64,000 nucleotides of DNA from assembly GCA_977017645.1 (NCBI GenBank), contig OZ360220.1, forward strand, positions 317,688,001 to 317,752,000, given 5' to 3'. Within the stretch, counting starts at the first letter, position 1, and each line of letters starts with the position of its first letter. The position numbers and the translations under genes were made by a program. Source of the stretch: Torpedo marmorata (taxonomy: Eukaryota). A model generated the notes under the pieces. That model searched no databases, was not told where the DNA came from, and saw only the letters and a program-made list of their open reading frames with translations. Of the stretch, positions 2,858 to 61,639 are shown in pieces.

Positions 2858-3123
2858 CACATAAATCTCTTTCCAACTGCTCATGAAGTTTTTATGTGGT
2901 GTAGTGTTACTGGACATATTGTTGGAGCTAATAATGTTGTACTTTATCCATTACATGCCCTACATAAATTTTAAAATTTAAGTCAAATGTATTGAAAGGT
3001 ATTCTGTATATATATATTGAGCTTTTTATTGTGGATTTGAGTAGATTTGGTCAGATTTGTATCTTCATCACAAAAACACTCCATAACGTGTTGCAAAGTA
3101 AGTATAATTGTAAAATGTTGTAC

Positions 3124-3369
3124 CTTGCATTTGTATGGTTGGGCTGTTCTAATGGACTGAGAATGTAGCCTCTGTTCACCACTTCCCATTCTGGAAGCTG
3201 GACCTTTGCTACATAAAAGACACTGTTTGACCTGCTGAGTTTCTCCAGCATTTATGTTTTTTACTTCAACCACGGTGTCGACAGATTTTCGTGTTTTACT
3301 TCTGGAAGCTGGATTTCTGTTCTGGCTCCAGCTCGGTGTGAAACTGGCTACACCAAGACAGCCAACTCG
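3124..3369 (-). CDS. TRPM6: TRPM6 coding exon (246 bp including a 111-bp in-frame repeat insertion)
   Basis: ttttccccag|CGA GTT...TGC AAG|gtacaa; ends LHSQSIRTAQPYKCK (recalled TRPM6 LHSQFIRTAQPYKFK); phase 0/0; open frame throughout. Confidence 0.85.
3203..3299 (+). mobile_element. Penelope-like terminal-repeat fragment inserted in a TRPM6 exon
   Basis: 14-bp TSD ttctggaagctgga at 3189-3202 and 3300-3313; near-identical reverse complement at ~32230-32276. Confidence 0.8.
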
Positions 3370-11740: not shown

Positions 11741-14700
11741 TTACAGCACGGAAACAGGCCATTTGGCCCTTCTAGTCCTCACCGAACCAAACACTGCTCT
11801 CTAGTCCCACCTACCTGCACCCCGCCCATAACCCTCCACTTCCTTCTCATCCATATACCTGTCCAACTTTTCCTTAAATAATAAAATTGACTCTGCTGCC
11901 ACTACTTCTCACGGAAGCTCATTCCACACCGCTACCACTCTCTGAGTAAAGAAGTTCCCCCTCATGTTACTTCTAAACCTCTGCCCCTTAACTCTTAACT
12001 CATGTCCTCTTGTTTCAATCTCTCCTACTCTTAACGGAAATAGTCTATCCACATCCACTCTGTGTATCCCTTTCATAATCTTAAATACCTCTATCAAATC
12101 CTCTCTCAACCTTCTACGCTCCAAAGAATAAAGGCCCAGTTTGCTCAATCTCTCCTTGTACTCTAGATGCTTAAACCCAGGTAACATTCTGGTAAATCTT
12201 CTCTGCACTCTCTCCACTTTGTTGATATCCTTCCTATAATTTGGCGACCAGAACTGCACACAGAACTCTAAATTAGGCCGCACCAACGCCTTATACAATC
12301 TCAACATCACTTCCCAACTCCTATATTCTATGCAATGATTGATAAAGGGAAGCATACTAAAAGCCTTCTTCACCACCCTGTTCACATGAGTTTCTACCTT
12401 CAGGGAACGATGCACCGTTATTCCTAAATCTTTCTGCTCTTCTGTATTCATCAATGCTCTCCCATTTACTACGTATGTCCTGTTCTGATTCTTCTTACCA
12501 AAATGAAGCACCTCACACTTATCAGCATTAAACTCCATCTGCCATTTTTCAGCCCACTTTTCTAAGCAGCCCAAATCCCTCTGCAATCCTTGAAAACCTT
12601 CTTCATTATCCACTATTCCACCTATCTTAGTATCATCTGCATATTTACTAATCCAGTTCACCACACCATCATCTAGATCATTGATGTATATAACGAACAA
12701 CAATGGGCCCAATACACATCCCTGAGGCACACCGCTGGTCACCGGCCTCCAACCTGACAGACAATTATCCACTACCACTCTCTGGCCTCTCCCTTCCAGC
12801 CAATGTTCAATCCATTTGACTATCTCAAAATTTATACCTAAAGACTGCACCTTCCAAACTAACCTTCCATGTGGAACCTTATCGAAGGCCTTACTGAAGT
12901 CCATATAGACAACATCCACTGCGCTACCCTCATCCACATTCCTAGTCACCTCTTCAAAAAATTCAATCAGATTGGTCAAACAGGACCTCCCGCTCACAAA
13001 TCCATGTTGAGTGTTCCTGATCAGACCCTGTCTATCCAGATATTTATAAGTACTATCTCTAAGAACTTTCTCCATTAATTTACCCACCACAGACGTCAAA
13101 CTCACAGGCCGATAATTGCCAGGCTTCCTCCTTGAACCCTTTTTAAATAACGGAACCACATGCGCAATACGCCAATCCTTCGGCACTATCCCCATCTCTA
13201 ATGACATTTGGAAAATCACCGTCAGAGCTTCTGCTATTTCCTCACTTACTTCTCTCAAGGTCCTGGGGAAGATCCCGTCGGGTCCCGGAGACTTATCCAC
13301 CTTTATATGCCTCAAAAGCTCTAACACTACAACTTTCGTAATCACTATATTCTCCATATTTACCCAATTTGCTTTTTTTATCTCGCATAACTCAATATCC
13401 TTCTCCTTGGTGAATACCGAAGAAAAGAAACTGTTCAATATCTCCCCCATTTCTCTAGGCTCCACACACAGTTTTCCGCTCTGATTCTCTAAGGGACCAA
13501 TTTTGTCCCTCGCTTTCCTTTTACCATTAACGTATTTGTAGAAACCTTTTGGATTAATTTTCACCCTGCTTGCTATAGTCTCCTCGTACATTCTTTTAGC
13601 TTTCCTAATTCCTCTCTTAAGATTCTTTTTACATTCAATGTATTTTTCAAACATCTCGTTAATTCCATGCTTCTTATACATAATGTACGCCTCCCTTTTT
13701 TTTCGAACCAAGTTTCCAATATTCCTCGAAAACCACGGCTCTCTGAAGATGGGTTTCCATCAGAATTTTATAAAGAGTTTAAAGATTTATTAATACCTCC
13801 ATATATGGAAGTATTGCATCAGATTACGGAAACTCATTCACTACCGAAAACTTTTTAAAATGCAATAATTACAGTTATACCAAAGAAGGATAGGGATGTA
13901 TTAAAAACTGAATCTTATAGGCCTATTTCATTATTAAATGTAGATTATAAAATAATGGCAAAAATTTAGCAAATAGAATGGTTAATTATTTGCCAGATTT
14001 GATTCATGTAGATCAAGCAGGTTTTATTAAGAATAGATATTCAAAAGATAATATAGCTAGATTGATTAGTTTAATTAATTTGCATAAAAAGAAACAAGAT
14101 TTACCATTAGTTTTAACATTAGACGCTGAAAAGGCTTTTGATAGATTAGAGTGGAATTTTTTATTTAAGATATTGGAAAAATTTGGCTTTGGAAATACAT
14201 TTATTAATTGGATTAAAACTATATATAAAGAACCATCTGCTAAAGTAGTTACAAATGGACAAATTTCCTCAAAATTTCCTTTGACTCGTTCTACTAGACA
14301 GGGATGTCCTCTGTCACCAGCATTATTTATTTTGGCGATAGAACCTGTGGCTGAATTAGTTAAAAAAGATCCTAAAATAGTTGGTATTAAAGTTGGTACG
14401 GAAGAACATAAAATTAGCTTGTTTGCGGATGATGTACTGATATATATGACAAAATCCATTACATCACTTCAACAATTATCTATTATATTAAGAGATTATG
14501 GGGAAATATCTGGATATAAAATTAATTCTGATAAAAGTGAAATAATGGCATTATCTCAAGGTGATTATAGTAGATGTAAAGAAATTACACAATTTAAATG
14601 GGCAAAGGAGGGAATTAAATATTTGGGAGTAAAGGTTGATATAAAATTGGATAATTTATATAAACTAAATTATTTACCATTATTTGCGAAAATAAATAAA

Positions 14701-32217: not shown

Positions 32218-32310
32218 AAAAACAGAAAAGCTGGAGAACTCAGCAGGTCAAACAGTGTCTTTTATGTAGCAAAGGTAGAAATACATAACCGACGTTTCAG
32301 GCTTGAGCCC
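32218..32310 (-). mobile_element. Penelope-like terminal fragment
   Basis: reverse complement reads gggctcaagcctgaaacgtc...gacctgctgagttctccagc. Confidence 0.7.
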
Positions 32311-42275: not shown

Positions 42276-42416
42276 CTTATGCTGTCTGTAGAGGCTGTTA
42301 TAAATGAGTCTAAAAGATTTCCGTGTATAACTGCTTCTGTATGCACCTCCAACCAGGTATTCCATCACCAAACCAATATCGATCAGGGTAACCTTGTAAC
42401 CAGGTGGTAAGTTGCT
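42276..42416 (-). CDS. TRPM6: TRPM6 coding exon (141 bp)
   Basis: tag|AGC AAC...CAT AAG|gtatgg; [47 protein letters not shown]. Confidence 0.94.
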
Positions 42417-44311: not shown

Positions 44312-44365
44312 CTGCTTCATATCTTGAACCAAGTGGTGCAACAAAAGATTAGTTGGACTTTGTTT
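44312..44365 (-). CDS. TRPM6: TRPM6 coding exon (54 bp)
   Basis: cag|AAA CAA AGT...AAG CAG|gtatag; KQSPTNLLLHHLVQDMKQ, close to recalled TRPM6 KQGPTNTLLHHLVQDVKQ. Confidence 0.92.
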
Positions 44366-48399: not shown

Positions 48400-48585
<186 letters not shown>

Positions 48586-59095: not shown

Positions 59096-59196
59096 CTTCC
59101 AATGTTGCCCATAAACCAAAATGTTTCTCTTGGCAATGTCCACTCTGTCCCATGCTAGTGCCAAACTTAGCTGGTCTGATGCAGAAGCATTTGTAC
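59096..59196 (-). CDS. TRPM6: TRPM6 coding exon (101 bp)
   Basis: aag|GT ACA AAT...TGG AAG|gtattc; [34 protein letters not shown] (TRPM WDRVDIA motif). Confidence 0.95.
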
Positions 59197-59280
59197 CTTC
59201 AGAAAACAAAATAAATGTTACTTTAGGATATCATGGGATTGGGGACATTGCGTTTCAAGAAATTTATGAATCATTAATAC

Positions 59281-59353
59281 CTTTGAGAAGAGCGGTTAAG
59301 ATCGCCAAGTCAATGTCCTGCTGCTCTTCTGATTCTGCATCAAAAATTGTAAT
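59281..59353 (-). CDS. TRPM6: TRPM6 coding exon (73 bp)
   Basis: cag|ATT ACA...CTC AAA G|gtatta; [24 protein letters not shown]; phase 0 in, phase 1 out. Confidence 0.93.
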
Positions 59354-61515: not shown

Positions 61516-61639
61516 CGATTCTCTATGCTCCATACATTCCATAAGAATTTTAAATAAGTGATCAGATTGCTTTTGTCCAAAATTAAACGTCTTCTGGATC
61601 ATTTCTATTAATTCAATTTCCAAGCCCGGATACAATTTC
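61516..61639 (-). CDS. TRPM6: TRPM6 coding exon (124 bp, probably orthologous to human exon 9)
   Basis: tag|G AAA TTG TAT...GAA TCG|gtgagt; encodes KLYPGLEIELIEMIQKTFNFGQKQSDHLFKILMECMEHRES, resembling recalled TRPM6 [24 protein letters not shown]. Confidence 0.9.

What the first reader, a model, noticed from the sequence alone, without database searches (positions are those of the whole stretch)
3124..3369. In-frame retroelement insertion inside a TRPM6 coding exon adds 37 amino acids
Seen: 97 bp of repeat plus a perfect 14-bp TSD total 111 nt (37 codons) with no stop in the TRPM6 frame. The peptide PASR is duplicated around SKTRKSVDTVVEVKNINAGETQQVKQCLLCSKG. The insert matches a Penelope-like end at ~32230. 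Removing it leaves a 135-bp, 45-aa exon, the length I recall for the paralogous TRPM7 segment. Inference: direct exonisation of a retroelement into a variable linker of a Mg2+ channel, either tolerated or a sign of relaxed constraint in a marine fish.
Basis: partly seen in the sequence, partly recalled or inferred. Interest (0 to 1): 0.85.

Follow-up and report, generated by a model that had tools for sequence, protein, structure and literature searches.

The report
Jumping-gene scrap in decaying TRPM6 exon
A 97-letter end piece of a common jumping gene sits in frame inside one exon of an electric ray's magnesium-channel gene TRPM6, but that exon is likely optional and decaying, so the piece probably does not lengthen the main working channel.

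Summary
A 97-nt 3' end of a Penelope-like element plus a 14-bp target-site duplication adds 37 open codons to the TRPM6 loop exon (3124-3369, minus strand; orthologue of human exon 15). A relative's DNA shows the empty site; a closer relative (~1.5% apart) carries the insertion. The gene is single-copy, with 38 mapped exons open, and groups with Narcine (electric rays). The claim that 37 residues are added to the channel is not shown and the evidence leans against it. The exon is symmetric with weak splice sites. Both Narcine models and one isoform in each of two Mobula sets lack it. The second insertion carrier has a stop at the exon's first codon, and this genome has lost a Phe kept in 97 of 97 orthologues. 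Against decay: the exon was constrained on older branches, its splice sites are intact, and an open frame arises by chance only ~10% of the time. No RNA could be tested. Best reading (0.55): an in-frame insertion into an optional exon that is now mostly skipped and drifting.

The parts
3124..3369 (-). TRPM6 loop exon (14th mapped coding exon; orthologue of human exon 15), 246 nt, phase 0/0, 82 open codons
   Evidence: orthologue alignment; numbering from PMC9174589
3370..3390 (-). Splice acceptor and pyrimidine tract; third weakest of 37 acceptors in a leave-one-out matrix built from this gene
3118..3123 (-). Splice donor (GT); sixth weakest of 37 donors
3189..3202 (+). Target-site duplication, copy 1 (14 bp)
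3203..3299 (+). 97-nt 3' end of the terminal repeat (pLTR) of a Penelope-like element, with the 40-nt tail, starting about 16 nt behind the likely hammerhead cut site; antisense to TRPM6
3300..3313 (+). Target-site duplication, copy 2 (its first letters also match the element's own 3' end)
3154..3156 (-). Ser codon where 97 of 97 matched TRPM6 orthologues and both laid relatives have Phe
3367..3369 (-). First exon codon (Arg, CpG); reads as a stop in organism A, the other insertion carrier
42276..42416 (-). Upstream TRPM6 exon (141 nt, ends in phase 0; orthologue of human exon 14)
44312..44365 (-). TRPM6 exon (54 nt)
48415..48549 (-). TRPM6 exon (135 nt)
59096..59196 (-). TRPM6 exon (101 nt)
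59281..59353 (-). TRPM6 exon (73 nt)
61516..61639 (-). TRPM6 exon (124 nt)
32218..32310 (-). Another 3'-end copy of the same Penelope-like family, without the tail, in the upstream intron

Best explanation
A 97-nt end piece of a Penelope-like retroelement inserted in frame, with a 14-bp duplication, into the loop exon of an otherwise intact electric-ray TRPM6 gene, and that exon is likely an optional one that is now mostly skipped and probably drifting without selection. Shown: insertion, duplication, donor family, open frame, empty and filled sites in relatives, intact rest of the gene. Inferred: target-primed insertion shortly before this lineage and organism A split; a weak symmetric exon whose skipping keeps the frame, so the working channel would be the skipped form (as in the Narcine models); loss of constraint on the exon from about the time of the insertion. 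Whether the insertion caused the skipping or was merely tolerated is not resolved.
For: (1) Phase 0/0, so skipping keeps the frame; acceptor 3rd weakest and donor 6th weakest of 37. (2) The exon is missing from 2 of 2 Narcine bancroftii models, 1 of 6 Mobula birostris isoforms and 1 of 5 isoforms of a second Mobula set; the window groups with Narcine at support 1.0. (3) Organism A carries the insertion and differs at 5 of 135 host-exon bases (1 stop at codon 1, 3 missense, 1 silent) against 18 of 1232 (1.46%) in introns; P(4 or more amino-acid-changing) = 2e-4 at dN/dS 0.19, 0.008 at 0.5, 0.07 at 1. (4) This genome has Ser for a Phe kept in 97 of 97 orthologues; 3 of 20 invariant loop columns are changed against 16 of 1001 in the core (Fisher p 0.005). 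(5) 5 of 8 exon changes fall on the two short post-insertion branches where 21% are expected, p 0.013. (6) The other 37 mapped exons are open with GT-AG junctions, 2058 codons, no stop; the next exon has dN/dS about 0.16 against organism B (5 changing, 8 silent); there is no second TRPM6 copy or spare loop exon.
Against: No transcript of this lineage was seen. 63 of 67 elasmobranch proteins that span the region keep the exon (60 of 64, plus 3 read). Against organism B the exon differs at 4 of 127 bases (3.1%) and the intron at 6.6%, so it was constrained on the older branches. Both splice dinucleotides and the frame are intact here, and a random antisense insertion of this piece is in frame and open only 10% of the time, which favours an exon still in use at insertion time. 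The stop in organism A rests on one contig of depth 11 and may be one allele. Changing:silent 6:2 in the loop exon against 5:8 in the next exon is not significant (p 0.18). The loop is about 3.4 times more variable than the core in other elasmobranchs too, which weakens point (4). RefSeq isoforms are models; the Narcine genome and reads were not available. All tests are post hoc on small counts.
Confidence: 0.55

Rival explanations
1. The exon is still spliced in as the main form, and TRPM6 of this ray carries 37 extra residues in a flexible cytosolic loop.
For: Frame and both splice dinucleotides intact; only about 10% of random antisense and 5% of sense insertions of this piece would be open and in frame; orthologous segments vary from 31 to 50 residues and reach 81 in some Heptranchias models; the loop is coil with pLDDT 23-29 in a weak model of the alligator orthologue; the exon was constrained on older branches.
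Against: Stop at codon 1 and Leu-to-Arg in the conserved motif in the other insertion carrier, Phe-to-Ser here; both Narcine models lack the exon; weak splice sites.
Confidence: 0.22
2. The whole TRPM6 gene is under relaxed selection in this strictly marine lineage and is on its way to loss; the insertion and the stop in organism A are early lesions of a constitutive exon.
For: In the next exon this genome has Gly-to-Arg and Met-to-Leu at columns that are invariant in 66 of 66 aligned TRPM1/3/6/7-type proteins; Gly-to-Arg is shared with organism A. Window and Narcine have the two highest counts of changes at invariant core columns (16 of 1001, 32 of 983; others 0-11). Stingray kidney trpm6 is lower in seawater than in fresh water (PMC9396271).
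Against: 38 exons, 2058 codons, no stop or frameshift; dN/dS about 0.16 in the next exon; 8 of the window's 16 core changes are shared with Narcine, leaving 8, within the range of other species; core identity to Pristis is 94.9%, as high as between other rays.
Confidence: 0.15
3. The exon is used only in part, through an in-frame acceptor inside or next to the insert, so little or none of the repeat is translated.
For: In-frame open AG sites exist at 3321, 3234, 3231, 3222, 3171 and 3156; shorter 31-residue forms occur in the Cetorhinus model; this would bypass the stop in organism A.
Against: These sites have poorer pyrimidine tracts (3-9 of 18 against 10), and the damaging changes in both carriers lie in the 3' part that would still be used.
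Confidence: 0.06
4. Assembly artefact or private polymorphism.
For: No reads of the assembled individual were available.
Against: An independent, ~1.5% diverged DNA run enters the insert from both flanks, a relative shows the clean empty site, and the duplication is perfect.
Confidence: 0.02

Closest known systems
Penelope-like elements (endonuclease-bearing; Cervera and De la Pena 2014, PMC4209133; Frangieh et al. 2024, PMC11167929)
   Same: Full copies have direct terminal repeats around one ORF with reverse transcriptase then GIY-YIG, a minimal hammerhead core in the repeat, tandem units, and two 3'-end classes 40 nt apart (the 'tail'). The insert is a tail-bearing 3' end.
   Different: Only 97 nt; the hammerhead core and ORF are absent. 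A 14-bp duplication is uncommon in this family here (10 bp or more in 5 of 54 copies). The clade within the group was not tested.
Retroelement insertions into coding exons that cause skipping or altered splicing (mouse alleles tabulated in PMC6466679, e.g. Poc1a cha: exon skipped, frame kept; Atp7a Mo-ca: 81-bp antisense L1)
   Same: Short retroelement piece inside a host exon with host splice sites; in-frame skipping is possible.
   Different: Those are new disease alleles; this one is shared by two wild lineages about 1.5% apart and lies in an exon that relatives already skip in some models.
Exonisation of transposable elements (Alu-type; recalled, not from a call)
   Same: Antisense repeat sequence that could be read as protein.
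   Different: No splice site comes from the repeat; inclusion is not shown.
Vertebrate TRPM6 exon 15 loop (human S552, the most prominent phosphosite in PMC5318989)
   Same: Orthologous exon by position (human exon 14 ends at c.1638, PMC9174589) and by its conserved C-terminal motif.
   Different: Here it carries an insertion and changes at invariant residues; no function of the loop has been tested in the passages I read.

Membership tests
Penelope-like element (donor family) | Single ORF with reverse transcriptase | tested here: met
   L072:5538-7244, 569 open codons, RVT_1 E 2.5e-6, 27.8 bits, just under the 29.6 cut-off; two more copies E 2.5e-4 (3 of 6 donor ORFs scanned)
Penelope-like element (donor family) | C-terminal GIY-YIG endonuclease in the same ORF | tested here: inconclusive
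   E 0.002, 18.7 bits, under the 22.6 cut-off, at residues 474-508 after the RT, in 1 of 6 ORFs
Penelope-like element (donor family) | Direct terminal repeats (pLTR) and tandem arrangement | tested here: met
   Insert matches both ends of L072 (3181-3282, 7482-7580) and repeats every 4193 bp in L068
Penelope-like element (donor family) | Minimal hammerhead ribozyme in the pLTR | tested here: inconclusive
   Core-like pattern with a stem just upstream of the insert; no Rfam match at gathering score in 8 loci; fold z-score 0.29
Penelope-like element (donor family) | Optional 30-40 nt tail (two 3' ends) | tested here: met
   Of 34 hits in 464 kb, 16 end near query position 240 and 15 near 270-280
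Penelope-like element (donor family) | RT groups with Penelope/telomerase RTs in a tree | not tested
   No tree of RTs was built
TRPM6 | Melastatin, channel, coiled-coil and alpha-kinase exons in order; groups with TRPM6 orthologues | tested here: met
   38 exons mapped; best hits are shark and ray TRPM6 at 96%; three other paralogous loci lie elsewhere at 63-70%
Exonised transposable element | Repeat supplies a splice site or a new exon | tested here: not met
   Acceptor and donor are orthologous host sites; orthologues start and end at the same residues
Exonised transposable element | Repeat sequence present in spliced mRNA or protein | not testable with these tools
   No RNA holder listed; no protein with the insert found (a weak search)
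Cassette (skippable) exon | Length multiple of three, same phase at both ends | tested here: met
   246 nt, phase 0/0
Cassette (skippable) exon | Skip isoforms in relatives | tested here: met
   4 of 67 elasmobranch proteins, all from rays; annotation only
Cassette (skippable) exon | Skipping in this species' transcripts | not testable with these tools
   No RNA of the lineage
Unitary pseudogene | Stops, frameshifts or lost splice sites in constitutive exons | tested here: not met
   None in 38 mapped exons; the first coding exon was not located

The most novel reading that the evidence does not exclude
Electric rays are shedding a TRPM6 exon that other jawed vertebrates keep and that holds the human channel's most phosphorylated site, and the process is caught in stages: absent from Narcine transcripts models, still constrained in organism B, and switched off in one lineage by a Penelope insertion after which two sister lineages broke it independently (a stop in one, loss of an invariant Phe in the other). 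That would give a natural deletion mutant of a regulatory loop in a vertebrate Mg2+ channel-kinase.
Probability: 0.3. Interest if true: 0.6.

Novelty: new member of a known kind. Interest (0 to 1): 0.38.

Why it matters
Insertions in coding exons of conserved genes are rarely fixed, so each case says something about the exon. Here the case warns against reading an open frame as a longer protein: the comparison with relatives turns an apparent gain of 37 residues into a likely exon loss. If skipping is confirmed, electric rays run TRPM6 without a loop whose C-terminal motif is conserved across TRPM6 and TRPM7 and whose human counterpart carries S552, which makes the loop's role directly testable. 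If inclusion is confirmed instead, it is a clean, datable case of Penelope-derived peptide in a vertebrate ion channel.

Tried and rejected
Protein search with the exon itself found nothing (weak), nor did the PDB search. No RNA holder listed; X6 gave no laid contig and X13 only a 71-nt piece under 90% alike that is probably a paralogue: no evidence either way. The representatives search returned unnamed fragments and was not used beyond a few alignment rows. Rfam found no hammerhead at gathering score and a single-strand fold was no better than shuffles. The AlphaFold model of the alligator orthologue is poor overall (mean pLDDT 45.8), so no fold search was run and the loop's disorder is only weakly supported; passages of PMC10167348 did not say whether the loop is resolved. 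No second copy of the loop exon in the 46 kb between its neighbours. In one search, 36 difference rows were not shown, so organism A's changes in the next exon are incomplete and no dN/dS was computed for it. Rejected: assembly artefact, pseudogene, TRPM7 or TRPM3 identity. Ten literature searches listed no paper on this exon or insertion in rays; one search listed 15 of 192 papers; the library lacks most subscription journals and no supplements were read. Earlier scan notes: none near or alike; one unrelated elephant-shark note was not used.

Full report
What is there. On the minus strand, 3124-3369 is a 246-nt exon bounded by AG and GT, in phase 0 at both ends and open for 82 codons. Inside it, 97 nt (3203-3299) lie between two identical 14-mers (3189-3202, 3300-3313). 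Insert plus one duplication is 111 nt, 37 codons. The junction and the right flank occur once in the 6.2-Gb assembly.

The gene. The upstream exon's best hits are shark and ray TRPM6 at 96%. With fetched proteins and tblastn over 464 kb of the window and its neighbours I mapped 38 coding exons from window position +109844 to -115250, all with GT-AG junctions, 2058 codons and no stop; the first coding exon was not located. Only one TRPM6 locus was found, with three paralogous loci elsewhere. In a 23-protein tree the gene is sister to Narcine bancroftii TRPM6 at support 1.0, so the animal is an electric ray. Human exon 14 is 141 nt and ends at c.1638 (PMC9174589, passages), as does the exon upstream here, so the exon in question is the orthologue of human exon 15. 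Human S552, reported as the most prominently phosphorylated TRPM6 residue (PMC5318989, passages), falls in it by that numbering.

The donor. The insert matches at least 40 other places at 96-99% (40 of 2362 candidates scored). Each of its two differences from the commonest letter among 43 copies is shared with 9-10 copies, so it is young. Longer copies have the same sequence at both ends of a 4.2-4.3 kb unit with one ORF scoring as reverse transcriptase (E 2.5e-6) followed by GIY-YIG (E 0.002), both under Pfam's cut-offs, and a hammerhead-like core just upstream of the insert's start (not confirmed by Rfam or folding). Copies end at two places 40 nt apart, the 'tail' signature described for Penelope-like elements (PMC11167929, parts 1-2 of 4 read; PMC4209133, part 1 of 4). 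The insert is a tail-bearing 3' end lying antisense to TRPM6. Duplications of 10 bp or more flank 5 of 54 copies examined, against 4 of 2000 shuffled pairs.

Relatives' DNA. Organism B (X2, X4; one sample) has the empty site with one copy of the 14-mer. Organism A (X1) enters the insert from both flanks and shows no skip joint; its introns differ from the window at 18 of 1232 bases, so it is not the assembled sample and the insertion predates the split. The overlaps into the insert (25 and 19 letters) are below the tool's bridging rule, as expected where contigs stop at a high-copy repeat.

Is the exon used? No RNA was available. Indirect evidence for skipping and decay: the exon is symmetric; its acceptor is third weakest and its donor sixth weakest of 37 in a crude matrix from this gene; it is absent from 2 of 2 Narcine models, 1 of 6 Mobula birostris isoforms and 1 of 5 isoforms of a second Mobula set whose species name was cut in the output. 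Between the two insertion carriers the 135 host bases differ at 5 places: a stop at codon 1, Thr-to-Lys and Leu-to-Arg and one silent change in organism A, and Phe-to-Ser in the window. That Phe is kept in 97 of 97 matched orthologues out of 98 examined, and the Leu is never Arg among them. Four amino-acid-changing differences are unlikely at the constraint of the next exon (dN/dS 0.16 measured; P 2e-4 at 0.19, 0.008 at 0.5) and compatible with neutrality (P 0.07). Five of eight exon changes fall on the two short post-insertion branches where 21% are expected (p 0.013).

Evidence the other way. 63 of 67 elasmobranch proteins spanning the region keep the exon. Against organism B the exon is more conserved than the intron (3.1% against 6.6%), so it was not dead in the common ancestor. 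The stop rests on a single contig of depth 11 at a CpG. The changing:silent contrast between the loop exon and the next exon is not significant (p 0.18), and the loop is about 3.4-fold more variable than the core in other elasmobranchs. For a gene-wide relaxation: the next exon has Gly-to-Arg (shared with organism A) and Met-to-Leu at columns invariant in 66 of 66 aligned proteins; but the gene is intact and its core is 94.9% identical to Pristis. TRPM6 was reported present in all gnathostome lineages examined, with possible losses only in a lungfish and two amphibians (PMC13143021, abstract and passages); stingray kidney trpm6 was 8.1, 11.0, 7.7 TPM in seawater and 21.4, 20.7, 11.7 in fresh water (PMC9396271, passages).

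How it most likely works. Shown: a Penelope-like 3' end inserted with a 14-bp duplication, in the one antisense frame of three that is open, in an ancestor of this lineage and organism A. Inferred: the exon was already weak and optional in rays; because both the skipped and the lengthened message keep the frame, the insertion did little harm; afterwards the exon took damaging changes in both descendants, which is most simply explained if the working channel comes from the skipped message. I put this at 0.55, inclusion as the main form at 0.22, gene-wide relaxation at 0.15, partial use through an inner acceptor at 0.06 and artefact at 0.02. The structure model is too weak to add more than that the segment is predicted as coil.

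Comparison and novelty. Retroelement insertions into exons that lead to skipping, sometimes in frame, are catalogued in mouse (PMC6466679, passages), so the kind is known. It is not exonisation, since no splice site comes from the repeat. New member of a known kind; interest 0.38, rising to about 0.6 if RNA shows staged loss of this conserved exon across electric rays.

Noticed in passing
window 3130-3131 (organism B): The X2 and X4 alignments both stop at 3131, eight bases before the donor; by the record coordinates X4's contig ends there and X2's has 32 letters left over. Organism B may differ from the window at the exon's 3' end (insertion, deletion or two alleles). The letters were not shown.
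   Followed up: partly
L021:5694-5974 (next TRPM6 exon): Gly-to-Arg and Met-to-Leu at columns invariant in 66 of 66 aligned TRPM proteins, and Tyr-to-Phe at a 62-of-66 column; the first and third are shared with organism A and absent from organism B.
   Followed up: partly
window 3382: Organism B has a pyrimidine at acceptor position -13 where the window and organism A have G; the insertion lineage may have a slightly weaker tract (direction of change unknown).
   Followed up: no
P0002, P0081 (Narcine models): Both start about 85 residues later than other ray TRPM6 and show the most changes at invariant core columns (32 of 983); isoform X2 also lacks a 22-residue exon before the kinase.
   Followed up: no
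P0356, P0359 (Stegostoma isoforms): These skip the upstream 47-codon exon, whose skipping is reported as pathogenic in humans (PMC9174589).
   Followed up: no
window 11912-13759, minus strand: A 616-codon open reverse-transcriptase frame of a LINE (CR1/L2-like by recall) in the 39-kb upstream intron.
   Followed up: no
G000:C31:152207518-152218378 (L067, L068) and L072:3181-7580: Tandem and near-full-length copies of the Penelope-like family, 98.6% alike between tandem units, with long open frames: a young, very abundant family.
   Followed up: partly
window 59197-59280: An 84-nt intron in a gene whose other introns run to 39 kb.
   Followed up: no
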